Sequence record: MK373792.1 | Strand: one strand, 5' to 3' | DNA from: Escherichia phage vB_EcoS_VAH1 | DNA: 64,000 bases | In this document: positions 53-43,384 of the stretch, in pieces | How the letters are laid out: each line of letters begins with the position of its first letter | Position numbering within the stretch: position 1 is the stretch's first letter | Made by a program: the position numbers and the translations under genes | The notes under the pieces: model-generated | What the model was told of the DNA's origin: nothing | The model's database searches: none | The model's input: the letters and a program-made list of their open reading frames with translations, nothing else

Positions 53-60
53 ATCTTAAA

Positions 61-99
61 TACAGAAAAGCCCTGCGCTCTCCAGGAAACGCAGGGCTT
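61..99 (-). terminator. Rho-independent terminator downstream of the SPFH gene
   Basis: Perfect 10-bp stem AAGCCCTGCG/CGCAGGGCTT; an A-run precedes it on + (a T-run on the - strand), just 3' of the CDS ending at 123. Confidence 0.5.
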
Positions 100-122
100 A
101 TTTCAGATGTTACATGCGGGTA

Positions 123-1070
123 TTATTTATTACGCATATCCATAATCATTTGGCCATCATAGCCAGTGCCAACCACAGTCTGCGGTACACCACCTTGGTA
201 TTTCTGAGCACGAATCATTTCAACTTCCAGTTGCTTCCAGCGAATCATCTCAGGAGTAATGGTACGTTGCAACGCGGCGTTAGCTTCAGCTTCTTTCTTA
301 GCTGCGTACAGTTTGGCATCTGCGTCACGCTCATTGGCAATAGCTTGGTTATTACGAGCTTCGCGATCTGCTTCTGCTTGTTTAACCTTCTGCTGTGCTT
401 CTTGTTCAACACGAGCCAGTTCAGCTTTCGCAGCATTAACTTGCTCTTCACGAACTTTGGTATTCTGTACCTGTTCCATGATTACCGGTGGCAAAGTAAT
501 ATCCTGAAGGAATACCTGCTTAACTGTATAACCATATGGGCGTGCATACTCTTCAACTTCCTGTTGAATTGCAGTTTGCAATTGAGCCTGAATTTTAGCA
601 TCAAACAAATCTTGTGCTTTAGGTACAGACTTACCAAACTCACGAATAGTAGACAGTAATTTTTCAGTTACATATTTATCTAGTGCTTGATCCTGGGTGC
701 CTGCGTTAATACGGTTAATCGGTGCCTTAGAACCATCAAATTGTAACATAACAGTCAGGTCAACAGTGGATTTAAACTTATCTTGGCTAGGAACCTGAAG
801 TTTATCTAATTTTACAGCAATATCTTTTGTACTAAAAGTATCGAAAGATGCAAATGGGTTTACAAGATGGAAACCAGGTAATACTGGGTTAGGATCTACT
901 TTACCTAGAAATGTTTGGGTTTTAACCGTACCATCAGAAACAATAGTATATGAATTAAAAGCTAGGATTAAACCTGCTAAACCAACTACAGCACCAATAC
1001 CCCAACGTTTAATAGTGCGAATTACTTTTTGCTCAGAAGTCAGTTCTTTCATATTTTTAGTATTAAACAT
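123..1070 (-). CDS. SPFH/band-7 (prohibitin/HflC-like) membrane protein
   Basis: 315 aa; N-terminal hydrophobic segment (IGAVVGLAGLILAF), band-7 core, then a Gln/Ala/Glu-rich coiled-coil tail; AAGGAA ribosome-binding site 5 nt before the ATG. Confidence 0.75.
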   Translation of the reverse strand: MFNTKNMKELTSEQKVIRTIKRWGIGAVVGLAGLILAFNSYTIVSDGTVKTQTFLGKVDPNPVLPGFHLVNPFASFDTFSTKDIAVKLDKLQVPSQDKFKSTVDLTVMLQFDGSKAPINRINAGTQDQALDKYVTEKLLSTIREFGKSVPKAQDLFDAKIQAQLQTAIQQEVEEYARPYGYTVKQVFLQDITLPPVIMEQVQNTKVREEQVNAAKAELARVEQEAQQKVKQAEADREARNNQAIANERDADAKLYAAKKEAEANAALQRTITPEMIRWKQLEVEMIRAQKYQGGVPQTVVGTGYDGQMIMDMRNK

Positions 1071-1104
1071 ATATTTCCTTTGTTTTAGTTACAGTTAATA
1101 AAAT

Positions 1105-1179
1105 TGGCCGAGGTGACAGGATTCGAACCTGCATAAAGGAATTTAGAAGACTCCTGCCTCTCCCTTAGACTACACCCCG
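1105..1179 (-). tRNA. tRNA-Arg (anticodon UCU), CCA encoded
   Basis: Hand-folded cloverleaf: acceptor CGGGGTG/CACCTCG, D-arm with GG, anticodon stem GGAGT/ATTCC with loop CUUCUAA, T-arm GCAGG-TTCGAAT-CCTGT, discriminator G plus CCA. Confidence 0.8.
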
Positions 1180-1682
1180 TTTAAGTATTTTTAAGAACTC
1201 TCGTAAAAACTCTTAAAAATACAGACGATACCGGGAGAGTCATAAGTCTCACTCATTAAGTATTTCAAGACAAAATACAGTAACGTCTATTATTTTCCAG
1301 TTTAAGTCAGGGTGACTTAGTGGTTATGTCCTGCGGTATATTGAGGACTCGGTTAGGCTTTGGGGTCATGACTTCCCGCCTTTTGCTGCTACTCAACAGG
1401 AGTTATCGCGAATTACCTGTGCTATTGTGCACCATTAGTGACATCTCTCATGTCAGCATTTCCCACTTTGTGGATAGCTTGAAAAACTACTCCGATATGG
1501 AGAAAGAACTTCACTATCCTAGAATACCTTCTAAAGTTCTTCTTTAGCCTGGACATAGTTAAATCGTAATAAAACTATTCAGCAGACTGGTTGGTTAGTC
1601 TGGAACCAACTACCGCGTGGTTTAGGCAGTGCGCAACTAACCTCGGAAGCTTTTACGTTAAAAGCATCAGTTATCCAGTTCT

Positions 1683-1754
1683 TACCGACCGTAGGATTCG
1701 AACCTACATCTTCCACCAGTTACGGCTTGATAATACCAATTATACTAGGACGGC
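1683..1754 (-). tRNA. tRNA-like element (possible pseudo-tRNA); anticodon arm not foldable by eye
   Basis: Canonical T-arm GTAGG-TTCGAAT-CCTAC, 6 of 7 acceptor pairs (GCCGTCC/GGTCGGT), D-loop AATTGGTA, but no 5-bp anticodon stem found. Confidence 0.35.
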
Positions 1755-1992
1755 AGTGTTACTACATAAGTGATTTCCACACCCCACTATCAGTAAATTA
1801 GAGAAGAGTTTAGGGGAGAGGTTTCAGACGCCTCATTTTACACGTTCTAGCCACTAACCGGGATTGCCGCCCCCTGTGTACTAGTTTTACAACTAACCCA
1901 CCGACTCTATTCAACGAATCTTAGTGCTCGACGCATCTTACATTAAGACAAGTTCAGCGTAATCGGCTCGCTGTTCCCTAATTTATGAATAT

Positions 1993-2021
1993 ATTATACA
2001 GAATTTAAAGGCATTTAGCAA
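1993..2021 (-). promoter_or_regulatory. T5-type early sigma70 promoter (TTGCTA-N17-TATAAT) reading leftward into the tRNA region
   Basis: On the - strand: TTGCTAAATGCCTTTAAATTCTGTATAAT with AT-rich flanks; one of a repeated promoter family. Confidence 0.6.
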
Positions 2022-2029
2022 ATAAATTT

Positions 2030-2473
2030 TTAATTAAATTCGCCAGCAATCTGAGCAGCAGTACCACCATCATAACGCCCAGGAAATTCTTCCTTAATCG
2101 CTTTCATCAGCATACCTTTTGTAATTCCAGGGTTTAGCTTAACTAATTCTGCAAAGTATTTACGAATCTCAGTATCAGATAACTGAGGAGGCAGATACTC
2201 CTGCAACCACTTATTTAGAATGTATTCATACTGAGCGGACTGCAAGCTATAACTATCAAGATCTTGACCATGAAGTTTAGCTTTCATCTGGTTAATGCTT
2301 TTTAGTTGAGCTTTGAGATAAGACACAAATTGTTCAGAAGTGATGAAATCTTTATCAATACGCTGAAGATCCCCGATTATGGTCTGATAGCTTTTAGCGA
2401 CTTCTTTATCAGAACCATTAAACTTAGAATCCTGCAAAGCTCTACGCAAAACATCTAAAATATTCTCTTCCAT
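2030..2473 (-). CDS. Hypothetical early protein
   Basis: 147-aa ORF; its ATG overlaps the stop of the upstream small ORF (TAATG), suggesting translational coupling. Confidence 0.6.
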   Translation of the reverse strand: MEENILDVLRRALQDSKFNGSDKEVAKSYQTIIGDLQRIDKDFITSEQFVSYLKAQLKSINQMKAKLHGQDLDSYSLQSAQYEYILNKWLQEYLPPQLSDTEIRKYFAELVKLNPGITKGMLMKAIKEEFPGRYDGGTAAQIAGEFN

Positions 2474-2643
2474 TATTTCATTCCTAACGCTTGGTTAAAA
2501 GATTGTTCCGTCATAACTGCTGAGACTTTGGCGAAATCAAACTTTTTAGGGTTCGTAGTGATCTCAGCAACGTTAGAAGTTTTAACAGTTTTCGTAGTAC
2601 GAATACCGCGAGTGTTAACACCAATAATTACAACTGATTTCAT
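2473..2643 (-). CDS. Small hypothetical protein (~56 aa), absent from the ORF track
   Basis: ATG at 2643 preceded by GAGAGGAAG and by the promoter at 2675-2703; stop overlaps the next gene's ATG. Confidence 0.45.
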   Translation of the reverse strand: MKSVVIIGVNTRGIRTTKTVKTSNVAEITTNPKKFDFAKVSAVMTEQSFNQALGMK

Positions 2644-2674
2644 ATTTCGCTTCCTCTCATTAATTTATGGAAGT

Positions 2675-2703
2675 ATTATACGGAAATTTAAGTATTTAAG
2701 CAA
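2675..2703 (-). promoter_or_regulatory. T5-type early promoter (TTGCTT-N17-TATAAT)
   Basis: The -35 and -10 hexamers are spaced 17 nt apart on the - strand, about 30 nt upstream of the ATG at 2643. Confidence 0.55.
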
Positions 2704-2711
2704 GTAAATTT

Positions 2712-3161
2712 TTAAGTTTTAGTGACAACAGGTTTATAAAACGTATGTCCCTTAATCTTAGTTGTTTTCTTAAACTTCTTTGTCCAGTAAGGTTTATCTT
2801 TACCACTATGGAAGTATAGTGCTCCATATGTAGGATCTTGTGGTAAATCAACGTAGTATATCACTCTAGCTAAATTCTTAGCGGTTTGCCAAGCCTCATC
2901 AGTTTTATCAACTTTTGGTCTCTTAGATACCCAAGAGAACTGGTTAGACTGATATACTACTTTACAGTAGGAATCTGGGAATTTACCGGAGTTTACACGG
3001 TTTTTAGTAACGTGTGCAATCGCCGTCATTCCCTTTATGCCCTCACCACGACTTTCGAAATAGATATTTTTAGCAATGCAATCTATTTCTTTTGCATCGT
3101 GCGATGCCTGACTACTAAAGCTGAAGGTAAGGGCAGCTACTAAAAGCAAAGCTGCCTTCAT
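2712..3161 (-). CDS. Secreted cell-wall hydrolase (SleB/Hydrolase_2-like) with signal peptide
   Basis: ORF-track frame 2712..3179; likely start is the ATG at 3161 (MKAALLLVAALTFSFSSQA signal peptide, AGGAG 8 nt upstream); mature region has the FESRGEG motif typical of SleB-type hydrolases. Confidence 0.65.
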   Translation of the reverse strand: MKAALLLVAALTFSFSSQASHDAKEIDCIAKNIYFESRGEGIKGMTAIAHVTKNRVNSGKFPDSYCKVVYQSNQFSWVSKRPKVDKTDEAWQTAKNLARVIYYVDLPQDPTYGALYFHSGKDKPYWTKKFKKTTKIKGHTFYKPVVTKT

Positions 3162-3166
3162 TCTTT

Positions 3167-3484
3167 TTACTCCTGCCAATCATATTCAACACGATTGGGA
3201 TTTTCTTTATACCCTAAGTCAAGCAAATCATTACGCATATTTTGCTTAGCTACTGGGTTCGAGGTTACTAGTACCACTTTCTTTGGTCTCTGCCCAAATT
3301 CTAAGAGTAAGCGAAGAATTTGATAACCTTCCATACCATCTACAGCCAAGTCATTATCCATATAAACGAAATGGCCTGTGGTATCAGTTTTATTCAGAAA
3401 CTCTACAGCGGCTTCTGGGGTTCGAATGATAATGTCCATTCCGTGAAGATTACGCACATCATCAATCAAAATATGAAAAGTCAT
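3167..3484 (-). CDS. Stand-alone receiver (CheY-like REC)-like small protein
   Basis: 105 aa; the pattern ILIDD...YMDNDL...VVLVTSNP resembles the acidic pocket, phospho-acceptor Asp and conserved Thr of receiver domains; weak, by eye. Confidence 0.45.
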   Translation of the reverse strand: MTFHILIDDVRNLHGMDIIIRTPEAAVEFLNKTDTTGHFVYMDNDLAVDGMEGYQILRLLLEFGQRPKKVVLVTSNPVAKQNMRNDLLDLGYKENPNRVEYDWQE

Positions 3485-3514
3485 AATAGCCTCGTTTCAT
3501 CAATTTAAAAATAT

Positions 3515-3543
3515 ATTATACAGATAACTTAGTAAATTAGCAA
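3515..3543 (-). promoter_or_regulatory. T5-type early promoter (TTGCTA-N17-TATAAT)
   Basis: Consensus hexamers with 17-nt spacer on the - strand, about 30 nt upstream of the start at 3484. Confidence 0.6.
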
Positions 3544-3926
3544 ATACATTTTTAAATTGTGAAACTAGTAAACCGATAAACAGCCTAGAGGCGCCACAGG
3601 CCATATCTTACGAGCCATGTACCTTTGATCTAGGGTTTGAATCATCAACGAATACTTTGCATCTTTTAGCTTTAGAAGTTTAGAAGTTTGAGTTCTTTAA
3701 ACTTTTCAGCTTTCATACTTAAATGTTGATCTTTGAAGTTGTGTCGGTAATATCAACGACGCTTTGTTTTTACGTGTCAGATTAAGTGTCTGATGTAATA
3801 AACATAATCTCCAATAGATTATACTTTATAGTATGGTCAGCGGTCTTATTTAACCTCGTATTTCAACCGCTGCTGCGAGGTAAGATGCTTGGGCTTTCGT
3901 CTACCGATTTACTAGCTTTTAAATTA

Positions 3927-4565
3927 TTACTCTACTTCAATGAAGGTAGAGGCGTTAGACTCGGACAGAACAAAGTCAACATTTGTTGCAAAGTCCTGGT
4001 ATTCCTCGTCATGCTGCTTAATCAGCTTTTCCAGTTCCAGCGGATCAATCAAGAATGGAGTATTCTTGAGTTCCAGCAGGTTGAGCTGCATTTTAACTTC
4101 ATCTTCGGAAGTTTTCTTATCGCGGGTAGCCATGCTATCCTGCAAACGCTCATATTTAGCATCAAACTGTGCTTTCTGCGTATTAAACTTAACCGTAGCG
4201 GCATGGAACTGCTTACGCATGTTAGCCAGCAGTTGGGCTTTAAGTTCCATAGAACGCTTAGCTTCAATTGCTTCCGCAACAGTCATCTTACGAGAGCCAA
4301 TCTCAACGATTGTTTCAGCATTGCTTTTAATCAGAGCAGCTTTGATACGATCACGCTGGGACATCATATCCAGGAGAGATTGGAAATCTGCCTTAATACG
4401 AGCGGACAGATCGTCTACTTCGATTGCAGCGCCAACTACAACCTTATTTTTATCCTTACCTTCACCAACAGCGATCAGAAGCTGTTGTTCAGTAGCTTTA
4501 CGGATTTTAGCTTCCAGAGATTTGATAGTTGCCAGAGCGCGAGTTTTAGAAATACGAGTAGTCAT
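3927..4565 (-). CDS. Hypothetical coiled-coil early protein
   Basis: 212-aa ORF with AAGGAA ribosome-binding site; charged, helical composition. Confidence 0.6.
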   Translation of the reverse strand: MTTRISKTRALATIKSLEAKIRKATEQQLLIAVGEGKDKNKVVVGAAIEVDDLSARIKADFQSLLDMMSQRDRIKAALIKSNAETIVEIGSRKMTVAEAIEAKRSMELKAQLLANMRKQFHAATVKFNTQKAQFDAKYERLQDSMATRDKKTSEDEVKMQLNLLELKNTPFLIDPLELEKLIKQHDEEYQDFATNVDFVLSESNASTFIEVE

Positions 4566-4618
4566 TATTTGCTTCCTTATATGAAGTTTGAGATTTGAAT
4601 TTGTTTAAACTTGGTTTA

Positions 4619-4801
4619 TTACAGACCAATTGCCAGCAGAGTGCGCAGAACAGTATCGTTACTGTTATCAATTTTAGGATTAGCACGATTTAGCAGATCA
4701 AAGATTTTCTGGACACCTGATTGACGTTCAGCCATACGACGGATACCCAGATTACGAGTAGCTTTCTTACCATTTTTACGAACATTTTTAGATACTGGCA
4801 T
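4619..4801 (-). CDS. Small basic hypothetical protein (60 aa)
   Basis: ATG with AAAGGAAA ribosome-binding site, directly downstream of the promoter at 4842-4870; Lys/Arg-rich. Confidence 0.5.
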   Translation of the reverse strand: MPVSKNVRKNGKKATRNLGIRRMAERQSGVQKIFDLLNRANPKIDNSNDTVLRTLLAIGL

Positions 4802-4841
4802 ATTTGTTTTCCTTTTATTGTTTTCTCAAATTTATGAATAT

Positions 4842-4870
4842 ATTATACAGAATTTTGGGGCCGGAAGCAA
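4842..4870 (-). promoter_or_regulatory. T5-type early promoter (TTGCTT-N17-TATAAT)
   Basis: Consensus -35/-10 on the - strand between the genes at 4801 and 4872. Confidence 0.6.
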
Positions 4871-4871
4871 A

Positions 4872-5573
4872 TCAAATTTTCATTTTTTCGATCATAGCTG
4901 CAACACAATAGCTTTCAACTAAGGCATCAAATGCAGGATCATGCTTAACCGGATAGATCCCATAACGAATAGTGTCCATCTTCTCCATTTTAGCTATTGC
5001 CCAGCTAATACCTTCGGTCTCTAGAGCCTTATAACTGTATCCAGCTTGCATCCAGAGATTACGAAGAGATCGAACATTACCCAAATTCCAGAATTTCCAC
5101 GGAACTACCTCTTCATTGGTTCCAGCATGGAACGTGTTTGCAGAGTAGATAGTCATATCAAACTCTGGACCATTGCCATAATACAAAGCATTTTCGCCTA
5201 GAGCCAACTCCATAATATTTTGAGCCATAGAGAAGGCAGCATAGTTAGAGCCGAGCTTATTAGTACAGTGATGTTTACCGTCTTGAAAAGCAATCAGCTT
5301 TGGATTGCATTCCCTCATAGCTTCCATAATATGTAGAGCTGATGGACTATTTTTAGCTTGATCCATCCAGAATGCTAGAGTAGATGCCGTAACTTTAGCT
5401 CCAGAATTAAGCTGATCTTGTACATCCAAAATAACAAACACTAGACCAGGATCTTTATCAATTCCGTGCATAGCCACAAAAGCGAAAGAAGGCATTACGA
5501 TATGAGTAGTACCACAATCTCCTGGAGTTCCTAAAGATTCAATATCTAGCATACCAAATGGTTTTACTTTCAT
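4872..5573 (-). CDS. DEDDh-type 3'-5' exonuclease-like protein
   Basis: 233 aa; Exo I-like DIESLG near the N-terminus and Exo III-like HDPAFDA near the C-terminus; AAAGGA ribosome-binding site. Confidence 0.5.
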   Translation of the reverse strand: MKVKPFGMLDIESLGTPGDCGTTHIVMPSFAFVAMHGIDKDPGLVFVILDVQDQLNSGAKVTASTLAFWMDQAKNSPSALHIMEAMRECNPKLIAFQDGKHHCTNKLGSNYAAFSMAQNIMELALGENALYYGNGPEFDMTIYSANTFHAGTNEEVVPWKFWNLGNVRSLRNLWMQAGYSYKALETEGISWAIAKMEKMDTIRYGIYPVKHDPAFDALVESYCVAAMIEKMKI

Positions 5574-5601
5574 AACTTATCCTTTATTGCGTAGAAAACT
5601 A

Positions 5602-5838
5602 TTAAAGAGCTGTCTCTTTAATAGACTCCCACTTCTTGGGGTCTTTAAAACCAGGAAGCATATCCTCACTGACATCCCAGTTCTCTTCCATAGAGAAGTC
5701 AGGCCATTCATTCCAGCTACCTTCCAATTCTTCATAACAGGTATCCATTACCTCATGACTAGAAAGTCGTGTATAATCTCTAGCGGACTTATGAGTGCTA
5801 GCACGGTTAAAATCATTCTTTGCTACAAAATTACGCAT
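5602..5838 (-). CDS. Hypothetical acidic small protein
   Basis: 78-aa ORF with GGAGAAACT ribosome-binding site; Trp/Glu/Asp-rich. Confidence 0.5.
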   Translation of the reverse strand: MRNFVAKNDFNRASTHKSARDYTRLSSHEVMDTCYEELEGSWNEWPDFSMEENWDVSEDMLPGFKDPKKWESIKETAL

Positions 5839-5852
5839 AGTTTCTCCAAACT

Positions 5853-5874
5853 AAGAGGGGCTTTCGCCCCTCTT
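5853..5874 (-). other. Intergenic GC-rich hairpin (attenuator or RNA-processing site) between two early genes
   Basis: Stem AAGAGGGGC/GCCCCTCTT with TTTC loop; no strong U-run, immediately followed by the ribosome-binding site of the next gene. Confidence 0.4.
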
Positions 5875-5879
5875 ATCTA

Positions 5880-6395
5880 TTACTTCGCTTTACATTTACG
5901 AGCTGGTTTAGCAGATTTATGAGCAGAATCGCCCGTGAATTTAATCCCTACACCGTAGCACAGAGCACGAACGTTATCTTTGCTATACTCTACACCGAAG
6001 ATATTTGGCTTAACAGAACCAAACTGTCCACGAGCATCACGCAGTACATCTGCCGTTGGTTTACGCTTCTGGTTAACTGCTTTCTCATAATCTTTCATGG
6101 CCATGCCATTACGAGAGAACAATTCAGCTCCAGCATTGAAACTCAGTGTTACTGGAACAGATTTGTGACCATAACCCTGTACATAGGTCACAAGGCGGGC
6201 TACAGAACGAGTAGCATTCTTAGCCTTCGGCTTTTGACGAATCGGAGCCGGACGATTCAGTGCCTGTGCAGCTTGAGCATCAGTAGGATGCTTGCGCAGG
6301 TGGCGTTCCAGACGAGCTTTGCGGTTAGCCTCAGTCTGCGGGAAAGTTTTAACTGTAGTAGCTGCTTGAGTTTTTGCGTTTTTCTGCTTAGCCAT
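5880..6395 (-). CDS. Hypothetical basic protein
   Basis: 171-aa ORF rich in Lys/Arg/Ala; preferred-codon usage; downstream of the promoter at 6434-6462. Confidence 0.55.
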   Translation of the reverse strand: MAKQKNAKTQAATTVKTFPQTEANRKARLERHLRKHPTDAQAAQALNRPAPIRQKPKAKNATRSVARLVTYVQGYGHKSVPVTLSFNAGAELFSRNGMAMKDYEKAVNQKRKPTADVLRDARGQFGSVKPNIFGVEYSKDNVRALCYGVGIKFTGDSAHKSAKPARKCKAK

Positions 6396-6433
6396 TATTT
6401 GTTTTCCTTTTTGTTTATCAATTTATGAAGTAT

Positions 6434-6462
6434 ATTATACGAGAATTTGAAGCGTTTAGCAA
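6434..6462 (-). promoter_or_regulatory. T5-type early promoter (TTGCTA-N17-TATAAT)
   Basis: Consensus hexamers on the - strand with AT-rich upstream element. Confidence 0.6.
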
Positions 6463-6478
6463 ATGAATTTTTTAAAAA

Positions 6479-6757
6479 TTATCTGCCGACCATCTTAGCT
6501 TGTTCTTCATCAGAAACGTATTGATATGCACCCTTGTTATACGCCGGAGCAGTGCACATCTTCTTACGCTCAATCTCTTCTTGAGCTTTTCTTTCGCGTT
6601 CAGCTAATTCTTCGTCCAGATAAACTAAACGTTGTTCTGGAGGGGGTGGAAGACGTGTTTCTGGCTCACCAATATTAGCCTTTCTTATTTGACGGGGTGA
6701 TTGTGCACGTTTTCTCAACGGTTTAAATCCTAATGAATTTGAGTTATAAATTCGCAT
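6479..6757 (-). CDS. Hypothetical protein
   Basis: 92-aa ORF with its own upstream promoter (6785-6813). Confidence 0.5.
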   Translation of the reverse strand: MRIYNSNSLGFKPLRKRAQSPRQIRKANIGEPETRLPPPPEQRLVYLDEELAERERKAQEEIERKKMCTAPAYNKGAYQYVSDEEQAKMVGR

Positions 6758-6784
6758 AAAGCCCTCCTCACTTTCAATACGAAT

Positions 6785-6813
6785 ATTATACTAAATTAGG
6801 GGGCTTTAAGCAA
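6785..6813 (-). promoter_or_regulatory. T5-type early promoter (TTGCTT-N17-TATAAT)
   Basis: Consensus hexamers on the - strand. Confidence 0.55.
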
Positions 6814-6833
6814 GAAGATTTTTAATTTATTTA

Positions 6834-7322
6834 TTACATCTCAGCCATTTCAGCTTCAGTAATAACTGTGTTACACAATGCATCTACAGCTTCATTACCA
6901 CTAATACCAGAATGTCCTTTAACCTTAATAAAGGTAGGATTAGTATTGTGAAAGTTGATATACTGCTGTGTTAATTTAAATGCTTCCTGCCAAAGTTCTA
7001 GATTAAGAGGGACTTCACCATCTGCTTTCTTCCAGCCTTTCCTTTGCCAAGAAAACATCCAACTTTCCATACCATTTTTGCAATAAGCAGAGTCAGTATA
7101 GATAGCAATTGGTCTATTATCTTTTTTAACAGACCAACGTAGGGCTTCTACGATAGCTGTGAGTTCCATCTCATTATTTGTAGTTTTAGGATTATAACCA
7201 GATTTAGAACCTAAACGATCGTCGTTATCATCATAGACAATAAAACCCCAAGCACCTGGACCTGGATTAGACTTACAAGCACCATCTGTGTAAATGTGGA
7301 AAACCGACATTATACCTCCCAA
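6834..7322 (-). CDS. rnhA: Ribonuclease HI
   Basis: 162 aa; the pattern TDGACKSNPGPGAWG...ELTAI...YTDS...VKGHSGISGNE matches the RNase H catalytic Asp/Glu/Asp/His motifs. Confidence 0.9.
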   Translation of the reverse strand: MGGIMSVFHIYTDGACKSNPGPGAWGFIVYDDNDDRLGSKSGYNPKTTNNEMELTAIVEALRWSVKKDNRPIAIYTDSAYCKNGMESWMFSWQRKGWKKADGEVPLNLELWQEAFKLTQQYINFHNTNPTFIKVKGHSGISGNEAVDALCNTVITEAEMAEM

Positions 7323-7591
7323 CTAATTTTAAGACCCATGTCTACAAAGGCGGCTTCTCGGTAGTATTGTGAGAGATGATACCCCTTATCCGATAAGGTT
7401 TTTAGTACCGATTTAGCTGCTCCTGGCATTTCTCTAGGATTATATAGCCACCTAGCGTAAGGATTATCTCGAATAATTACTTCTGTATTTCCAGACTTAG
7501 CAGCTTCTACAATCTTTTCTTCTATAAACTTTAGAAATGCGGGTACTTCTGTTAATCCTGCAAGTTCTTGGGCTTCTTTGGCTGAAATCAT
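7310..7591 (-). CDS. Hypothetical protein
   Basis: 93-aa ORF overlapping the RNase H start (operon-like), downstream of the promoter at 7617-7645. Confidence 0.5.
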   Translation of the reverse strand: MISAKEAQELAGLTEVPAFLKFIEEKIVEAAKSGNTEVIIRDNPYARWLYNPREMPGAAKSVLKTLSDKGYHLSQYYREAAFVDMGLKISWEV

Positions 7592-7616
7592 TGTATACCT
7601 CCAATTTATAAAATAT

Positions 7617-7645
7617 ATTATAGTTAAATTTCACTAAATAAGCAA
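7617..7645 (-). promoter_or_regulatory. T5-type early promoter (TTGCTT-N17-TATAAT)
   Basis: Consensus hexamers on the - strand. Confidence 0.55.
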
Positions 7646-7660
7646 ATGAAATTTAAATAT

Positions 7661-7680
7661 AATAGCCCCGAAGGGCTATT
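7661..7680 (-). terminator. Hairpin terminator after thyA
   Basis: Stem AATAGCCC/GGGCTATT with CGAA loop, immediately 3' of the thyA stop, AT-rich flank. Confidence 0.5.
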
Positions 7681-7684
7681 TAAG

Positions 7685-8524
7685 TTAAGAGGACATTTTA
7701 GCTTTAAGAGCCGGATGCGGATCATATCCTTCAAGCTGGAAGGACCAAGCTGCCGTATTATTTTCTAATAAATCGTAAAGATCTACAAACTCTGGCATTA
7801 CTAGAGTTGGTAAAGAGCGAGGTTTACGTTTTACCTGTTCTTCTACCTGTTCCATATGGTCATTATAGATATGAGTGTCACCACCACTAAAGATAAGATA
7901 GCGAGGTTTTAATCCTGTCAGTTTTGCTAATATATGCGTTAATAAAGCATAACTAGCGATATTGAAAGGTAAACCGAGGAAACAATCTACAGAACGTTGT
8001 GTCCATTTAAGATCTAGGTATCCATCGTTACTTACATAGCACTGGAAGCCGTAGTGACAGGGTGGTAATGCCATCTTATCCAGTTCAGCAACGTTCCATG
8101 CAGATACTAGATGTCTGCGGCCATGGGGGTTATTCTTGAGTCCTTCAATAAGTTCTAGAATCTGATCTCGTCCACCAAAGTTACGCCACTGTTTACCATA
8201 TACTGGTCCTAGATTACCCTTATCATACCCCATACTTATAGCTTGGTCTTCATAATTTGGAGTCCAGATGGTCCACTGTCCTTCGTCACGACCAAATGTG
8301 AATACACGTAGATCATGAAGATTTGTGGAACCAGACAAGAACCATAAAAGTTCTCCTACTACTGATTTCCAGGCTAGGCGTTTAGTAGTTACAGCCGGGA
8401 ACCCTTCACGTAGATCGAATTTAGCATAGGAATCAAAAATTGAAACTGTGCCTGTTCCTGTACGGTCATTACGGGGTTCACCTAGTAAAATTACATCTGT
8501 CAAAATTTTTAAGTATTGTTGCAT
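7685..8524 (-). CDS. thyA: Thymidylate synthase
   Basis: 279 aa; active-site region PPCHYGFQCYV and overall ThyA signature. Confidence 0.95.
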   Translation of the reverse strand: MQQYLKILTDVILLGEPRNDRTGTGTVSIFDSYAKFDLREGFPAVTTKRLAWKSVVGELLWFLSGSTNLHDLRVFTFGRDEGQWTIWTPNYEDQAISMGYDKGNLGPVYGKQWRNFGGRDQILELIEGLKNNPHGRRHLVSAWNVAELDKMALPPCHYGFQCYVSNDGYLDLKWTQRSVDCFLGLPFNIASYALLTHILAKLTGLKPRYLIFSGGDTHIYNDHMEQVEEQVKRKPRSLPTLVMPEFVDLYDLLENNTAAWSFQLEGYDPHPALKAKMSS

Positions 8525-25286: not shown

Positions 25287-25697
25287 ATGACTACTCCAAC
25301 TCAGTGGACTGATGAACTATTCGAAAAAATGTCTTCCGAATACGTTGCTCGTATGGAGCAATTCCCAGAGGATGAACGTCCGAATGTTAGCATGGAAATT
25401 GTTAGCGAAATTGCCCAGGAAAATGGTGTAACTCCGAACGGTTTTCGTATGAAGCTGACTAAAGCAGGTTTGTATATCAAGAAAGCTGCTGGCTCTGCTT
25501 CTAAATCTAGCGCATCTACTGGAGAAAAAGCTTCCGGTGGTTCTCGTACCTCCAAAGCTCAAGCCCATGCCGACCTTCGTTCAGCTTTCTCTGATGCTGG
25601 CTTAGCACCAGATTTTCTGGATGATGCAATTATCGACAAACTGACCGGTAAAGCGGCTGCTCATCTGGCAGAAGCAATCCGAGCTATCACTAAGTAA
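25287..25697 (+). CDS. Hypothetical protein
   Basis: 136-aa ORF with AAGGAAA ribosome-binding site; preferred-codon usage. Confidence 0.6.
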   Translation: MTTPTQWTDELFEKMSSEYVARMEQFPEDERPNVSMEIVSEIAQENGVTPNGFRMKLTKAGLYIKKAAGSASKSSASTGEKASGGSRTSKAQAHADLRSAFSDAGLAPDFLDDAIIDKLTGKAAAHLAEAIRAITK

Positions 25698-27644: not shown

Positions 27645-28424
27645 ATGAAAATCGAAATTCCAACACAATGTCCCTCTTGTGGTTCTAAGCTAGATCTTGT
27701 CAACGGACAATTATTCTGTCGTAATAAGTCCAACTGTCCAGCGCAATCAAGTAAGTTAATTGAGAACTTCTGTACAAAAATGAAGTTAAAGGGCTTTGGC
27801 CCGAAAACTATTGAGAAGCTGGAGCTGACGAAGATTTCAGAACTATTTTACCTAACCGAAGAAGATTTGGTTAGAGCAGTGGGTAGCAAGGTTGCCGCTA
27901 AATTAATTAGCGAATTAAATACTAAAGTTCGCGGAGACATTGACTTTGGTTCAGTTCTCGGTTCTTTAGGAATCCCTCTAATTGGAGAGGTTGCAGCAAA
28001 GAAATTATCCCAAAATTGCACTAGCTTCCACGATGTGAAGGCTGACGGCAAGGCTGGAGAAAACTATAAAGCCTGGCTAAATTCCCCACAAGGCAAGGAT
28101 GTTATCGAATTACCGTGGAAATTCACAACTGGTGTTAAAGGTGCTAAAGCTGAGGTCATCATTACTGATGGTCTAGTAGCCCAACCAAACGGAATAACGG
28201 TATGTATTACCGGATCTTTGCAAGATTTTGCAAATAGAACGGATGCAACAAACTATCTAGAAGGTCTAGGGTATACTGTTAAAAAATCAGTTACCAAAGA
28301 CGTTAAATACCTAATCTGTGAGGATGAATCTAAGCGTTCTTCCTCATCTTATAAGAAAGCCGAAACGAATGGGATAGAAATCCTGTCGATTAAAGAACTA
28401 TTGGAGAAAAATAATAATGTCTAA
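27645..28424 (+). CDS. lig: NAD-dependent DNA ligase, C-terminal part (Zn finger, HhH, BRCT)
   Basis: Track ORF 27642..28424; ATG at 27645 with AAGGAAG ribosome-binding site; CPSCGS...C...C zinc finger and BRCT-like C-terminus. Confidence 0.75.
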   Translation: MKIEIPTQCPSCGSKLDLVNGQLFCRNKSNCPAQSSKLIENFCTKMKLKGFGPKTIEKLELTKISELFYLTEEDLVRAVGSKVAAKLISELNTKVRGDIDFGSVLGSLGIPLIGEVAAKKLSQNCTSFHDVKADGKAGENYKAWLNSPQGKDVIELPWKFTTGVKGAKAEVIITDGLVAQPNGITVCITGSLQDFANRTDATNYLEGLGYTVKKSVTKDVKYLICEDESKRSSSSYKKAETNGIEILSIKELLEKNNNV

Positions 28425-29184
28425 ACTGAACTGGAACGTAGAAGGTGTAACCGAGTCTCTGAAAGCAAAAGCCACTGCTCTGGGTGTTGCTGTAATCTCT
28501 CAAGAACAAGTAGCTGCTATCGCTGCTGAACTGGCTGCTGAGACTGGCAAAGACGTTACCGCTCGCTCTGTTGGCTCTAAGCTGCGTAAAGAAGGTTTCG
28601 AAGTACAGAAAGCTAACGAAGTACAGAAATCTCCGTGGACTCCTGAGCAGGAAGCTGAACTGGTTGATTTCCTGAACGCTCATGCTGGTCAGTATACCTA
28701 TGCTGAAATCGCTGCTGCTGTAGCTGGTGGTCAGTTCGGTGCTAAACAGGTACAGGGTAAGATCCTGAGTCTGGAAATGACCGCTTCTGTTAAACCAACC
28801 GAAAAAGCTGCTGCTGTTCGTTCCTTCACTCCGGATGAAGAAACTGATTTTGTTAATCAGGTTGTTGCTGGGGCTACTATTGAAGCTATCGCTGCTCACT
28901 TCGGTCGTAATATCAAACAGATCCGTGGTAAAGCTCTGAGTCTGCTTCGTGAAGGTCGTATCGCTGCTATGCCGGTACAGGAAACTTCAAGTGCTAAAAC
29001 TCGTGAAGATCTGCTAGAAGGTCTGGATCTGGTTAACATGACCGTTGCTGAGATCGCTGAGAAAACTGGTAAATCTGAGCGCGGTGTTAAATCTATGCTG
29101 TCTCGTCGTGGTCTGGTTGCTAAGGACTATGATGGTGCCGCTAAGCGTGCTAAACTGGATGCAAAAGCTGCGGCTGCTGAATAA
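28417..29184 (+). CDS. Abundant DNA-binding-like protein with three internal helix-turn-helix-like repeats
   Basis: 255 aa; repeated modules (YAEIAAAVAGG...KQVQGKILSL; IEAIAAHFGRNIKQIRGKALSL; VAEIAEKTGKSERGVKSMLSRRG); strongly preferred codons. Confidence 0.55.
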   Translation: MSKLNWNVEGVTESLKAKATALGVAVISQEQVAAIAAELAAETGKDVTARSVGSKLRKEGFEVQKANEVQKSPWTPEQEAELVDFLNAHAGQYTYAEIAAAVAGGQFGAKQVQGKILSLEMTASVKPTEKAAAVRSFTPDEETDFVNQVVAGATIEAIAAHFGRNIKQIRGKALSLLREGRIAAMPVQETSSAKTREDLLEGLDLVNMTVAEIAEKTGKSERGVKSMLSRRGLVAKDYDGAAKRAKLDAKAAAAE

Positions 29185-37236: not shown

Positions 37237-37521
37237 ATGCTTACAGAGCCTGATGCTCACCAATTATTGGTCGGTTCCTCATTCATTTTGAATGAATCAA
37301 CAATAGTTGATAATCAAAATAAATTGTCTAATAGACAACTGGCAGAATATCTAGGAATTTTAAGTCTACGAAATTATGCCGAATACAAGTTTACAAACGA
37401 TCCTAGTTTGGACATACAATATGTTCCAGTATGGATACCTCGTTTAGTAATCGACACTAACCCACTAATCGCAATTAACAAATCGAAATTAATCTTTAAA
37501 GAGGAAATAAAATATGGCTAA
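37237..37521 (+). CDS. Hypothetical protein
   Basis: 94-aa ORF with a weak ribosome-binding site; overlaps the next gene's start. Confidence 0.35.
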   Translation: MLTEPDAHQLLVGSSFILNESTIVDNQNKLSNRQLAEYLGILSLRNYAEYKFTNDPSLDIQYVPVWIPRLVIDTNPLIAINKSKLIFKEEIKYG

Positions 37522-42941: not shown

Positions 42942-43384
42942 TTAAAATTAAGTTAACTCATCCAGATTGTATGCCTAAGATTGGCTCTGAAGATGCCGCA
43001 GGTATGGATCTGCGAGCATTTTTTGGTACTAATCCTGCAGCGGATTTACGTGCTATTGCACCAGGCAAATCCCTAATGATTGACACCGGTGTCGCGGTAG
43101 AAATTCCACGAGGTTGGTTCGGTTTGGTGGTTCCGCGTAGTTCTTTAGGTAAGCGCCATCTGATGATTGCAAATACCGCAGGAGTGATCGACTCAGACTA
43201 TCGTGGGACTATTAAGATGAACCTCTATAACTACGGTTCTGAAATTCAAACTCTGGAGAATTTTGAAAGACTTTGTCAGCTAGTAGTAGTACCACACTAT
43301 TCAACTCATAATTTTGAAATCGTTGACGAACTAGAGGAGACTATTCGTGGAGAAGGTGGATTTGGAAGCTCAGGAAGCAAGTAA
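42938..43384 (+). CDS. dut: dUTPase
   Basis: 148 aa; dUTPase motifs AGMDLRA, RSSLG, GVIDSDYRG and the C-terminal RGEGGFGSSG. Confidence 0.9.
   Translation: MIKIKLTHPDCMPKIGSEDAAGMDLRAFFGTNPAADLRAIAPGKSLMIDTGVAVEIPRGWFGLVVPRSSLGKRHLMIANTAGVIDSDYRGTIKMNLYNYGSEIQTLENFERLCQLVVVPHYSTHNFEIVDELEETIRGEGGFGSSGSK

What the first reader, a model, noticed from the sequence alone, without database searches (positions are those of the whole stretch)
3927..7591. Cluster of promoter-equipped small early genes of unknown function (60-212 aa), several strongly basic
The ORFs at 3927, 4619, 5602, 5880, 6479 and 7310, together with the small ORF at 2473..2643 and the exonuclease-like ORF at 4872, lie between RNase H and the tRNA region. 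Most have their own consensus promoter and ribosome-binding site. Lys/Arg-rich small proteins expressed early are typical of host-shutoff factors, nucleoid-binding factors or anti-defence proteins.
Basis: inference. Interest (0 to 1): 0.4.

Follow-up and report, generated by a model that had tools for sequence, protein, structure and literature searches.

The report
T5 early genes hide protein-RNA module
The flagged genes are the ordinary, already annotated early-gene block of a T5-like phage, but the gap after its 212-residue gene holds an unannotated, roughly 357-base folded RNA that follows this gene family in phages and bacteria and often leads into transfer-RNA gene arrays.

Summary
The window is a Tequintavirus, 97% identical to phage VEc33. 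The listed ORFs are the orthologues of T5.082 and T5.085 to T5.090, plus one 93-aa ORF that T5 lacks.

All are real genes. Five of the eight have their own T5-type promoter (TTGCTW-17-TATAAT). Four of the eight are basic. T5 already annotates these genes and promoters, so the cluster itself is known.

Nothing supports a host shut-off role. In a close relative these genes are silent when second-step DNA transfer is blocked, so they are early genes, not pre-early take-over genes.

The block is mixed:
- a DEDDh exoribonuclease-like enzyme (4872-5573);
- DUF7022 (5880-6395), an abundant protein with net charge +25;
- the operon 4619-4801, then 3927-4565, then a structured RNA at 3562-3918.

The RNA has a 21-bp closing helix, a pseudoknot, a run of heptamer repeats and a covarying 3' hairpin. 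It matches no Rfam family. One distant copy gives a below-threshold hit to RAGATH-27.

A covariance model finds the RNA directly downstream of the 212-aa gene family in 131 of 145 loci searched. A tRNA gene often follows within a few bases to about 1 kb.

The 212-aa protein has the fold of DIP1984 and is mislabelled 'tail fiber'.

My best reading is an abundant protein-RNA particle linked to the phage's tRNA genes. This is inferred, not shown.

The parts
7617..7645 (-). T5-type sigma-70 promoter (TTGCTT-17-TATAAT) for the 93-aa ORF and rnh
   Evidence: Exact pattern match. Sequence read.
7310..7591 (-). 93-aa ORF, pI 5.8, phrog_5321, function unknown. Absent from T5 and present in VEc33 (gp128).
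   Evidence: The Bas33 orthologue has TPM 1753/1855.
6834..7310 (-). RNase H (T5.091 orthologue, 158 aa from the ATG)
   Evidence: Pfam RNase_H E = 2.9e-32. Annotation.
6785..6813 (-). Promoter for the 92-aa ORF
   Evidence: T5 annotates a promoter at the same place.
6479..6757 (-). T5.090 orthologue: 92 aa, pI 9.5, phrog_4593, function unknown
   Evidence: The Bas33 orthologue has TPM of only 59/67.
6434..6462 (-). Promoter equivalent to T5 P-H207 (TTGCTA-17-TATAAT)
5880..6395 (-). T5.089 orthologue (DUF7022): 171 aa, pI 10.6, net charge +25. A codon-optimised, abundant early protein.
   Evidence: Pfam 254 bits. CAI 0.497 against a window median of 0.25. Bas33 TPM 7677/6658. Model pLDDT 65. 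The full-length form was found only in T5-like phages, including Klebsiella, Pectobacterium and Yersinia phages. The N-terminal ~65-aa basic domain occurs alone in about 120 small proteins.
5852..5875 (.). GC-rich palindromic hairpin after the DUF7022 gene, a likely terminator or attenuator
   Evidence: Terminator scan. The Bas33 gene just downstream drops to TPM 102.
5602..5838 (-). T5.088 orthologue: 78 aa, acidic (pI 4.7). Its N-terminal ~25 aa resemble DUF7230, below threshold.
   Evidence: No promoter of its own.
4872..5573 (-). T5.087 orthologue: 233 aa, Rv2179c-like DEDDh 3'-5' exoribonuclease-like enzyme
   Evidence: Pfam PF16473 scores 32.5 bits against a cut-off of 27. Candidate catalytic motifs: LDIES starts at residue 9 (so D10, E12), GPEFD at 135 (so D139), HDPAFD at 211 (so H211, D216). 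Start positions are; the catalytic assignment is by eye. The 'metallopeptidase' label is not supported.
4842..4870 (-). Promoter of the operon: 60-aa ORF, 212-aa ORF, then the RNA
   Evidence: No terminator-like site lies between 4870 and 3562 on this strand.
4619..4801 (-). T5.086 orthologue: 60 aa, pI 11.6, phrog_5252. Codon-optimised (CAI 0.46).
   Evidence: Outside close T5 relatives only one candidate was seen, by eye, in Pectobacterium phage DU_PP_V; tblastn found none there. Bas33 TPM 3368/3035.
3927..4565 (-). T5.085 orthologue: 212-aa helical protein with the DIP1984-like fold. It is the partner gene of the RNA. The database label 'tail fiber protein' is wrong.
3562..3918 (-). Unannotated structured RNA, about 357 nt, starting 9 nt after the stop codon of the 212-aa gene
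   Evidence: RNAalifold predicts 35 pairs, 23 with compensatory changes. Covariance models place it here and at the same position in 131 of 145 loci. No Rfam match.
3898..3918 (-). RNA closing helix P1, 5' strand. It pairs with 3562-3582: 21 bp, of which 5 are G-U.
   Evidence: An equivalent ungapped helix of at least 12 bp is present in 43 of 60 elements, against 3% of shuffled controls.
3838..3881 (-). H-type pseudoknot. S1 is 3876-3881 with 3853-3858. S2 is 3866-3872 with 3838-3844.
   Evidence: S2 differs in sequence but stays complementary in most of the 10 aligned phages.
3642..3741 (-). Central, largely unpaired run of roughly 7-nt repeats (YUYAAAG, core U-N-A-A-R)
   Evidence: 9 U-N-A-A-R sites in 100 nt against 2.9 +/- 1.6 in shuffles. 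A period of 7 fits best in 28 of 33 homologous elements.
3575..3644 (-). 3' hairpin domain, AAAUCC-stem...stem-GGCUG. This is the part the covariance models describe.
   Evidence: R1 77 bits, R2 52 bits. 94.3% of cells are paired against 73.6% in shuffles, and 11 of 13 pairs show compensatory changes.
3515..3543 (-). Next promoter, for the cREC gene. It starts 19 nt after the 3' end of the RNA.
3167..3484 (-). T5.084 orthologue: cREC_REC domain, a predicted cyclic-phosphate-processing receiver domain
   Evidence: Pfam PF20274 E = 3.8e-15. Predicted role taken from PMC7824862.
2473..2643 (-). T5.082 orthologue: 56 aa, DUF7616, pI 10.4. Its own promoter lies at 2675-2703.
   Evidence: Bas33 TPM 1094/977.
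2030..2473 (-). T5.081 orthologue: a weak YqeY-like (GatB C-terminal-like) match
   Evidence: Pfam YqeY scores 25.4 bits against a cut-off of 27, so it is below threshold. Bas33 TPM 4599/4142.

Best explanation
The segment is the early (second-step-transfer) gene block T5.082 to T5.091 of a T5-like phage. Host RNA polymerase transcribes it from seven strong T5-type promoters. It is a mixed set of genes, not one class of small basic effectors. Three parts stand out.

**1. An operon that ends in an RNA.**
- The promoter at 4842-4870 drives a 60-aa basic protein, then a 212-aa helical protein with the DIP1984 fold.
- With no terminator-like site in between, it runs on into a ~357-nt structured RNA at 3562-3918.
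- The protein gene and the RNA travel together across phages of Proteobacteria and Bacillota and in many Bacillota genomes.
- In many of these a tRNA gene or a tRNA array starts just after the RNA.
- I infer that the protein and the RNA form an abundant particle, made together with or ahead of the phage tRNAs.
- I infer that it acts in tRNA or translation-related RNA biology, and that its row of heptamer repeats is displayed as binding sites.

**2. An abundant basic protein.** The P-H207-type promoter drives DUF7022, a very basic and probably disordered protein. It most likely coats nucleic acid.

**3. RNA-end enzymes.** A DEDDh exoribonuclease-like enzyme lies here. The neighbouring cREC gene and a weak YqeY-like gene add an RNA-end or tRNA-related flavour.

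**Shown:** gene identity, promoters, high expression, the RNA structure, and the gene-RNA-tRNA linkage.

**Inferred:** that protein and RNA bind each other, and what they do.

**Likelihoods by layer:**
- about 0.95 that this is the known T5 early block with real promoters;
- about 0.8 that the gene and the RNA form one functional unit;
- about 0.35 that they act as a protein-RNA particle in tRNA or translation biology.

The overall confidence of 0.6 is a blend of these layers.
For: **Identity and promoters.**
- 97% identity to VEc33, and synteny with T5 genes and annotated T5 promoters, including P-H207.
- The promoter pattern occurs 15 times against 0.14 expected.

**Expression.**
- CAI is 0.535, 0.497 and 0.46 for the 212-, 171- and 60-aa genes, against a window median of 0.25 and 0.65 for the capsid gene.
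- Bas33 RNA-seq at 20 min gives TPM 8541 and 7677 for the first two. These are among the six highest values in the part of the table that I read.
- Both fall to about zero when second-step transfer is blocked.

**RNA structure.**
- RNAalifold predicts 35 pairs, 23 with compensatory changes.
- In the 3' domain 94.3% of cells are paired, against 73.6% in shuffles and 33-53% when partners are slid.
- A closing helix of at least 12 bp is present in 43 of 60 elements, against 3% of controls.
- G-U pairs and hits on the gene strand show that the fold belongs to the RNA, not the DNA.

**Linkage of RNA to gene.**
- Model R1, built only from enterobacterial-phage copies, gave 38 hits in 1.04 Mb. All lie just downstream of the gene.
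- Model R2 hit downstream of the gene in 52 of 59 viral and reference loci, 74 of 80 bacterial loci and 5 of 6 named cultured phages.
- R2 gave only three weak stray hits (E = 0.026 to 0.35); one locus also carries a second strong hit in tandem.

**tRNA linkage.**
- 28 of 53 non-T5 viral loci carry tRNAs.
- In about 22 of them the first tRNA lies within roughly 1 kb downstream on the same strand.
- This includes loci with only 1 to 3 tRNAs in 20 kb.
- In PVP-SE1-like phages tRNA-Thr starts 4-5 nt after the closing helix.
- Single tRNAs follow the RNA in several bacterial loci.

Against: - No experiment shows that the RNA accumulates as a discrete species.
- No experiment shows that the protein binds it.
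- The covariation counts come from an alignment fitted to the model.
- In T5-like phages themselves no tRNA follows the RNA directly. The nearest tRNA-like gene is about 1.8 kb away.
- Many bacterial copies have no tRNA nearby, so the tRNA link is frequent but not obligatory.
- The protein is neutral (pI 6.8) and has no recognised RNA-binding domain.
- The function of DUF7022 rests only on charge, disorder and abundance.
- The YqeY match is below Pfam's threshold.
Confidence: 0.6

Rival explanations
1. At least one of the small basic proteins (the 60-, 171-, 92- or 56-aa ORFs) or the 93-aa ORF is a host shut-off, nucleoid-binding or anti-defence factor.
For: - Four proteins are basic.
- DUF7022 is abundant and highly charged.
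- The region is mosaic. Relatives carry a NADAR gene coupled to the 92-aa ORF, and NADARs reverse DarT ADP-ribosylation (PMC11543638).
- A 71-aa gene and the 93-aa ORF come and go between relatives.
Against: - No family match points to anti-defence or shut-off.
- The literature places host take-over in T5-like phages in the pre-early genes (PMC3326045, PMC13250531).
- These genes are not expressed when only first-step DNA enters the cell.
- The 92-aa ORF is barely transcribed at 20 min, with TPM about 60.
Confidence: 0.25
2. The RNA is only a cis-acting 3' untranslated element of the 212-aa gene. It would act as a stabiliser or processing signal that protects the highly expressed mRNA from 3' exonucleases, not as a separate functional RNA.
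For: - It starts a median of 21 nt after the stop codon and always lies on the gene's strand.
- No terminator-like site separates it from the gene.
- The upstream mRNA is very abundant.
- A 13-22 bp closing helix would block exonucleases.
Against: - A conserved pseudoknot, a heptamer array and a covarying 3' domain kept at 25-45% protein identity, from Proteobacteria phages to Bacillota, is far more than a stabiliser needs.
- In many lineages a tRNA follows within 4 to about 20 nt. RNase P would then release the RNA as a separate molecule.
Confidence: 0.2
3. The RNA belongs to the tRNA operon as a leader or processing scaffold and works without the protein. The protein gene would sit upstream only because it supplies a strong promoter.
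For: - tRNAs follow in about 22 of 53 viral loci.
- GOLLD and ROOL RNAs are also found near tRNA islands with no known protein partner (PMC12286853, PMC5737381).
Against: - The RNA follows the gene in 131 of 145 loci, whether or not tRNAs are present. Most Bacillota loci have no tRNA within 3 kb.
- The downstream neighbour varies while the upstream gene is constant.
- A pattern scan found no RNA copy without the gene.
Confidence: 0.1
4. The conserved intergenic element works as DNA, for example as an origin, as iterons or as a protein-binding array.
For: Short repeats of about 7 bp could serve as binding sites on DNA.
Against: - The helices contain many G-U pairs, which would be mismatches on the other strand.
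- All covariance-model hits lie on the gene's strand, apart from two weak stray hits (E = 0.026 and 0.22) on the other strand.
- Long-range compensatory changes preserve pairing, not sequence.
Confidence: 0.03

Closest known systems
Phage T5 genes T5.082 to T5.091 with promoters P-H207, P-D/E 33 and others (NC_005859)
   Same: Same gene order, same sizes and highly similar proteins. Promoters are annotated at the same positions.
   Different: The window has an extra 93-aa ORF before rnh. The T5 record annotates nothing between 43,142 and 43,504, where the RNA lies; the model hit is at T5 43,153-43,222.
RAGATH-27 RNA (Rfam RF03100, 86 nt, function unknown)
   Same: - One distant copy, in an Acholeplasmataceae genome (L169), matches at 61.4 bits, E = 5e-8.
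- The match lies exactly at the 5' end of the element.
- The family consensus shows the same order of parts: a closing-helix strand, CGAAAA, then a pseudoknot-forming hairpin.
   Different: - The match is below the family's gathering score of 76.1.
- The window, L037 and 22 other loci scanned give no match.
- The family model covers only about 86 nt and lacks the closing helix partner, the repeat array and the 3' domain.
- The paper library holds no text on it.
GOLLD and ROOL RNAs (large phage and prophage RNAs near tRNA islands)
   Same: All are found in phages and prophages, often next to tRNA genes. All have structured domains around a flexible internal linker. Function is unknown for all (PMC12286853, PMC5737381).
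   Different: - There is no match to their Rfam models.
- This RNA is much smaller, about 240-400 nt against about 580 to more than 800 nt.
- Its architecture differs.
- It is tied to one specific upstream protein gene, whereas no protein partner has been identified for ROOL.
DIP1984 of Corynebacterium diphtheriae (PDB 3kdq); Pfam DUF6847 / NCBIfam DIP1984_fam
   Different: - The window protein does not reach either sequence model.
- Only 8 of 55 (Pfam) and 4 of 55 (NCBIfam) family members match weakly.
- The window protein is about 60 residues longer.
- DIP1984 itself has no known function.
Rv2179c-like 3'-5' exoribonucleases (Pfam PF16473)
   Same: The 233-aa ORF passes the Pfam threshold. 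D-x-E, D and H-x4-D motifs are present by eye.
   Different: No solved relative was found by sequence. Its substrate is unknown. Databases variously call it 'metallopeptidase' or 'exonuclease'.
RNA motifs tied to one nearby protein family (DUF3800-I, drum, skipping-rope)
   Same: These are a precedent for structured RNAs of unknown function that show a compelling association with one protein family (PMC5737381). A skipping-rope RNA lies right after one bacterial copy of this module.
   Different: Those motifs occur on either side and either strand of their gene. This RNA is always immediately 3' of its gene and on the same strand.

Membership tests
T5 early gene block (Tequintavirus) | Synteny and high identity with T5.082 to T5.091 | tested here: met
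   97% nucleotide identity to VEc33 and the same gene order as T5. T5 proteins fall in the same 90%-identity clusters.
T5 early gene block (Tequintavirus) | Expressed only after second-step DNA transfer | tested here: met
   Bas33 orthologues have TPM from about 60 to 8500 without drug and 0 to 26 when transfer is blocked. The data come from a relative, not from this phage.
T5-type strong sigma-70 promoters | TTGCTW -35 element, 17-nt spacer, TATAAT -10 element, A/T-rich upstream block | tested here: met
   Seven exact copies between 1993 and 7645, with 15 in the window against 0.14 expected. Five of the eight listed ORFs have their own.
Pre-early host take-over genes | Located on first-step-transfer DNA and expressed when transfer is arrested | tested here: not met
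   The block lies next to thyA, frd and nrdAB in the second-step region. It is silent under daunorubicin arrest.
Tail fiber protein (database label of the 212-aa ORF) | Encoded in the late structural module and present in virions | tested here: not met
   The gene lies in the early region and is highly transcribed at 20 min. It is not among the four virion proteins identified for AKFV33 (PMC3326045). Its fold is a helical bundle like 3kdq.
DIP1984 / DUF6847 family | Reaches the curated sequence-model threshold | tested here: not met
   The window protein gives no hit. 8 of 55 relatives match PF20935 weakly (best E = 7e-4) and 4 of 55 match NF038048 (best E = 3e-3).
DIP1984 / DUF6847 family | Same fold as PDB 3kdq | tested here: met
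Rv2179c-like exoribonuclease (PF16473) | Pfam gathering score | tested here: met
   32.5 bits against 27.
Rv2179c-like exoribonuclease (PF16473) | DEDDh catalytic residues | tested here: inconclusive
   Motifs LDIES (start 9), GPEFD (start 135) and HDPAFD (start 211) are present. I assigned them as catalytic by eye, not by a structural alignment.
DUF7022 (PF22887) | Pfam gathering score | tested here: met
   254 bits against 27, over the full length.
RAGATH-27 (RF03100) | Rfam gathering score of 76.1 bits | tested here: not met
   The window region gives no hit at E up to 10. The best relative, L169, scores 61.4 bits.
GOLLD / ROOL | Match to the Rfam covariance model | tested here: not met
   No hit in the window, L037, L007-L009 or 20 bacterial loci.
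GOLLD / ROOL | Phage or prophage RNA located near tRNA islands | tested here: met
   About 22 of 53 non-T5 viral loci have a tRNA within roughly 1 kb downstream.
tmRNA / RNase P RNA | Detected by ARAGORN or the Rfam models | tested here: not met
   ARAGORN finds only tRNA-Arg. Rfam finds nothing in the element.
Type III toxin-antitoxin (ToxIN-like) | A repeat RNA upstream of an endoribonuclease toxin, separated from it by a terminator | tested here: not met
   Here the RNA lies downstream of the gene. The repeats are about 7 nt long and embedded in a folded RNA. The protein is a helical bundle with no PADLOC match.
cREC (PF20274), neighbour gene 3167-3484 | Pfam gathering score | tested here: met
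   56.8 bits against 27.
YqeY (PF09424), neighbour gene 2030-2473 | Pfam gathering score | tested here: not met
   25.4 bits against 27, matching the C-terminal part only.

The most novel reading that the evidence does not exclude
The 212-aa protein and its 3' RNA form an abundant protein-RNA particle. It would be a third, protein-partnered class of tRNA-island-associated phage RNAs, beside GOLLD and ROOL.

Its single-stranded array of about 8 to 13 heptamers has the core U-N-A-A-R. This is the pattern of an anticodon loop, U33-N34-A35-A36-R37. The array would act as a decoy or sponge for a host factor that binds or cuts tRNA or mRNA, and so protect phage translation.

The likeness to an anticodon loop is my own reading of the repeat and is untested.
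Probability: 0.12. Interest if true: 0.85.

Novelty: new variant of a known kind. Interest (0 to 1): 0.6.

Why it matters
**The cluster as flagged is ordinary.** The genes and promoters have been in the T5 record for years, and nothing links them to host shut-off.

**What is worth keeping is the module next to it.**
- A folded RNA of about 240-400 nt follows one protein family in large tRNA-rich phages. Examples are T5-like phages, Vequintavirinae, Herelleviridae and Erwinia jumbo phages.
- The same pairing occurs in 74 of 80 Bacillota and other bacterial genome loci tested.
- It is missing from every genome annotation that I inspected.
- It matches no Rfam family. Only one branch gives a partial, below-threshold match to RAGATH-27.

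**Why that is useful.**
- The large phage RNAs found beside tRNA islands (GOLLD, ROOL) have had no known function since their discovery.
- This RNA has a likely protein partner.
- It sits in T5-like phages of E. coli K-12, where genetics, RNA-seq data and defence-system libraries already exist. The question becomes directly testable.
- The result also corrects a widely copied wrong label, 'tail fiber protein', carried by many of the 742 matching phage records.

Tried and rejected
- **Solved structures by sequence.** PDB searches with the 212-, 171- and 233-aa proteins gave nothing useful.
- **Fold library.** The AlphaFold-database library was not available.
- **DUF7022 model.** It was too poor for a fold search, with pLDDT 65 and pTM 0.26.
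- **Literature.** Searches for T5.085 to T5.090 and for RAGATH-27 found no paper. The 2017 motif paper has no supplement held as text.
- **NADAR and the 92-aa ORF.** A 90%-identity cluster joined the 92-aa ORF with 149-aa NADAR proteins. This is a clustering artefact, because the two are unrelated (BLASTP E = 9.5).
- **RNase P RNA or tmRNA.** I considered both because of the end-to-end helix, the pseudoknot and a UUCAAAUCC stretch that resembles a T-loop. I rejected both. Neither Rfam nor ARAGORN matches, and the AAAUCC stem pairs locally rather than with distant sequence.
- **Generic pseudoknot finder.** It did not separate real from shuffled sequences (13.1 bp against 11.8 bp). The pseudoknot therefore rests on covariation in the enterobacterial-phage group only.
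- **Pattern scan for the 5' motif.** In IMG/VR it found 12 true copies, all with the gene 68-111 nt upstream. It also found 17 unrelated matches with no 3' domain, so the pattern is not specific.
- **A conserved small partner upstream of the 212-aa gene.** None exists outside T5-like phages.
- **Possible paralogue.** The 203-aa ORF upstream in PVP-SE1-like phages is not one (hhalign probability 0.65%).
- **Conserved ORF inside the gap.** None was found.
- **Tandem Repeats Finder.** It sees only an 8-nt repeat with 2.4 copies, because the heptamers are degenerate.

Full report
**What the window is.**
- Bases 2000-8000 are 97.4% identical to Escherichia phage VEc33 and match 452 T5-like phage records.
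- All genes between 1 and about 12,700 run on the minus strand.
- Gene order and protein clusters give these equivalents in T5:

| Window | T5 gene or name | Note |
|---|---|---|
| 2030-2473 | T5.081 | |
| 2473-2643 | T5.082 | |
| 2712-3179 | T5.083 | SleB-type cell-wall hydrolase |
| 3167-3484 | T5.084 | |
| 3927-4565 | T5.085 | |
| 4619-4801 | T5.086 | |
| 4872-5573 | T5.087 | |
| 5602-5838 | T5.088 | |
| 5880-6395 | T5.089 | |
| 6479-6757 | T5.090 | |
| 6834-7310 | rnh | |
| 7310-7591 | none | 93-aa ORF absent from T5, present in VEc33 and many others |

Upstream of this block lie thyA, frd, nrdB and nrdA. Downstream lie a tRNA-like region and tRNA-Arg.

**Checking the observation.**
- The ORFs are real. 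Each matches its PHROG family over its full length, with E-values from 1e-32 to 1e-99.
- The promoter claim is largely right.
  - The exact pattern TTGCT-N18-TATAAT occurs 15 times in the window against 0.14 expected. Seven of these lie on the minus strand between 1993 and 7645.
  - Read against the ORF starts, the ORFs at 7310, 6479, 5880, 4619 and 2473 have their own promoter.
  - The ORFs at 3927, 4872 and 5602 do not.
- T5 annotates promoters at the same places. They include P-H207 in front of T5.089.
- Four of the eight proteins are basic (pI 9.5 to 11.6). Four are acidic or neutral.

**Expression.**
- A codon adaptation index picks out four genes.

| Gene | CAI |
|---|---|
| 3927-4565 | 0.535 |
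| 5880-6395 | 0.497 |
| 4619-4801 | 0.46 |
| 2473-2643 | 0.416 |
| window median | 0.25 |
| capsid gene | 0.65 |

- Published RNA-seq of the close relative Bas33 at 20 min after infection agrees (PMC13250531 Dataset S1):

| Orthologue of | TPM (two replicates) |
|---|---|
| T5.085 | 8541 / 6881 |
| T5.089 | 7677 / 6658 |
| T5.081 | 4599 / 4142 |
| T5.087 | 3569 / 3043 |
| T5.086 | 3368 / 3035 |
| 93-aa ORF | 1753 / 1855 |
| T5.082 | 1094 / 977 |
| rnh | 785 / 856 |
| T5.088 | 102 / 92 |
| T5.090 | 59 / 67 |

- All drop to 0-26 TPM when daunorubicin blocks second-step transfer.
- These are therefore early genes, not pre-early ones.
- The literature places host take-over in T5-like phages in the pre-early genes (PMC3326045; PMC7472727; PMC13250531).

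**The individual proteins.**
- **T5.087** passes the Pfam threshold for Rv2179c-like 3'-5' exoribonucleases. It has D-x-E, D and H-x4-D motifs.
- **T5.084**, just outside the flagged range, is a cREC domain. This domain is predicted to process cyclic phosphates and is linked to RNA ligases (PMC7824862).
- **T5.081** is a below-threshold YqeY-like match.
- **T5.089** is DUF7022.
  - The full-length form was found only in T5-like phages.
  - Its basic N-terminal ~65 residues occur alone in about 120 other small proteins.
  - Its model has low confidence.
- **T5.088** has a below-threshold DUF7230-like N-terminus.
- **T5.086, T5.090, T5.082 and the 93-aa ORF** have no informative match.
- None of the ten proteins matches a PADLOC model.

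**The 212-aa protein.**
- Databases call it 'tail fiber protein', yet it lies in the early region.
- It is not among the four virion proteins identified by mass spectrometry for AKFV33.
- It belongs to a large family of proteins of about 210 aa with no Pfam model.
- A confident model (pLDDT 89) is a helical bundle with a small sheet at one end.
- Weak sequence links point the same way.
- The family occurs in 742 cultured phage records. Most of those outside the T5 group that I inspected are large phages, about 95 kb or more.
- It also occurs in 396 IMG/VR loci and 177 bacterial genome loci, mostly Bacillota.

**The lead.**
- Distant homologues sit inside tRNA arrays.
- Among 53 non-T5 viral loci, 28 carry tRNAs. 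In about 22 of them the first tRNA lies within roughly 1 kb downstream on the same strand.
- This includes loci that have only one to three tRNAs in 20 kb.
- Between the gene and the first tRNA there is always a gap of about 300-450 nt, as in the window (3485-3926).
- The gaps hold no conserved ORF, but they share sequence and architecture.

**The RNA.** In the window the core is 3562-3918 on the minus strand, 357 nt, starting 9 nt after the stop codon. The parts are:
- a 21-bp helix closing the two ends, 3898-3918 with 3562-3582, including 5 G-U pairs;
- an H-type pseudoknot, with S1 at 3876-3881 / 3853-3858 and S2 at 3866-3872 / 3838-3844;
- variable hairpins;
- an unpaired run of roughly 7-nt repeats (YUYAAAG) at about 3642-3741. 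It contains 9 U-N-A-A-R sites against 2.9 expected;
- a 3' hairpin domain, AAAUCC-stem...stem-GGCUG, at 3575-3644.

**Evidence that the fold is real.**
- RNAalifold on ten phages predicts 35 pairs, 23 with compensatory changes.
- The S2 stem has a different sequence in most of those phages and stays complementary.
- An ungapped closing helix of at least 12 bp is present in 43 of 60 elements, against 3% of shuffled controls. The median RNA length is 313 nt.
- A period of 7 is the best fit in the central region of 28 of 33 elements.

**Linkage of RNA and gene.**
- A covariance model of the 3' domain built only from enterobacterial-phage copies (R1) found 38 hits in 1.04 Mb. All lie on the gene's strand directly after the gene.
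- On that alignment 94.3% of cells are paired, against 73.6% in shuffles and 33-53% when partners are slid. Eleven of 13 pairs show compensatory changes. The alignment is fitted to the model, which favours the structure.
- The rebuilt model R2 hit directly downstream of the gene as follows:

| Set searched | Loci with a hit after the gene |
|---|---|
| Viral and reference loci, including T5 itself at 43,153-43,222 | 52 of 59 |
| Bacterial genome loci | 74 of 80 |
| Named cultured phages (KpS8, PMBT69, pVp-1, Bcp1, Deimos-Minion) | 5 of 6 |

- Each of the six cultured-phage records shows an unannotated gap of roughly 350-480 nt after the gene; only PMBT69 marks a misc_feature inside it.
- R2 gave only three weak stray hits, and one locus has a second strong hit in tandem.
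- In PVP-SE1-like phages tRNA-Thr begins 4-5 nt after the closing helix.
- Single tRNAs follow the RNA in several bacterial loci.
- RNase P cleavage at those tRNAs would then release the 3' end of the RNA. This is an inference.

**Is the RNA known?**
- Rfam 15 gives no match for the window, L037, L007-L009 or 20 bacterial loci.
- There is one exception. In an Acholeplasmataceae locus the 5' end of the element hits RAGATH-27 (RF03100) at 61.4 bits, below the gathering score of 76.1.
- The consensus of that family shows the same closing-strand, CGAAAA and pseudoknot layout.
- RAGATH-27 therefore looks like the 5' domain of one branch of this larger RNA.
- I found no text on RAGATH-27.
- GOLLD and ROOL are the nearest analogues in context. 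They are phage or prophage RNAs, often near tRNA islands, with flexible internal linkers and unknown function. They differ from this RNA in model, size and architecture.

**How it most likely works.**
- Shown:
  - the operon layout, with the promoter at 4842-4870 and no terminator-like site before 3562;
  - high expression;
  - the fold of the RNA;
  - the constancy of the gene-RNA pair.
- Inferred:
  - the protein binds the RNA;
  - the repeat array is a row of binding sites held between folded domains;
  - the particle acts in tRNA or translation-related biology.
- The rivals are a cis-acting 3' UTR stabiliser, a tRNA-operon leader that needs no protein, and a DNA-level element.
- Each is weighed in its own section. 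The DNA reading is disfavoured by the G-U pairs and by hits almost entirely on the gene strand.

**Verdict.**
- The flagged cluster is the known T5 early block, and the host shut-off reading has no support. Taken alone it would score low.
- The follow-up shows that its largest gene is half of a widespread, unannotated protein-RNA module linked to tRNA genes.
- That module is a new variant of a known kind of element, and it can be tested directly in T5-like phages of E. coli.

Noticed in passing
L005 5248-5697 and L006 5246-5695 (relatives); no counterpart in the window between 6395 and 6479: IrisVonRoten, MET_P1_100_107 and Bas33 carry a 149-aa NADAR gene that overlaps the stop of the T5.090 orthologue by 4 nt. 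NADARs reverse DarT ADP-ribosylation, so this spot looks like an accessory or anti-defence insertion site.
   Followed up: partly
window 5838-5880; L001 6381-6596: VEc33 and many relatives have a 71-aa gene (phrog_2380) between the T5.089 and T5.088 orthologues. The window, like T5, has only the GC-rich hairpin at 5852-5875 there.
   Followed up: partly
Bas33 genes bas33_0069, 0072 and 0073 (orthologues of window 6479-6757, 5602-5838 and 4872-5573): The T5.090 and T5.088 orthologues have TPM of about 60 and 100. This is 30-100 times below their neighbours, although T5.090 has a consensus promoter. The exonuclease gene just downstream of T5.088 is about 35 times higher, yet I see no promoter between them.
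   Followed up: no
window 1683-1754 (-): A tRNA-like sequence scores 35.5 bits with the Rfam tRNA model, but ARAGORN does not call it. It lies in the stretch that T5 annotates as stable 'RNAX', downstream of the promoter at 1993-2021.
   Followed up: no
window 123-1070 (-): The gene annotated 'lipoprotein' or 'transmembrane protein' in relatives is an SPFH/Band 7 domain protein (Pfam E = 2e-17).
   Followed up: no
L129 9-70 and 575-632; L090 4019-4147: Bacterial copies of the protein-RNA module lie next to other orphan RNAs. Two type-P5 twister ribozymes lie upstream in a Parabacteroides contig. A skipping-rope RNA lies directly after the module in Paenibacillus xylaniclasticus.
   Followed up: no
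L129 3830-3902 and 4192-4260: One bacterial locus has two strong hits of the 3' domain model in tandem after the gene, so the RNA may be duplicated there.
   Followed up: no
L049 11026-11214 and L064 11048-11236 (approximate, from spacer positions): In two metagenomic phages a 62-aa very basic ORF (MSRQSK...) follows the RNA directly, before the tRNA array.
   Followed up: no
window 28417-29184 (+), 37514-38287 (+), 25287-25697 (+): Together with the capsid gene, these three ORFs have the highest codon adaptation in the window (0.72, 0.55, 0.53). The Bas33 gene with the highest TPM that I read (22,868) is also 768 nt long.
   Followed up: no
L204 (Pseudomonas phage phiPsa347) 2116-2518: This phage has the 212-aa family gene and a 400-nt unannotated gap after it, but the 3' domain model gives no credible hit. 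The RNA may be absent, or too diverged to detect.
   Followed up: no
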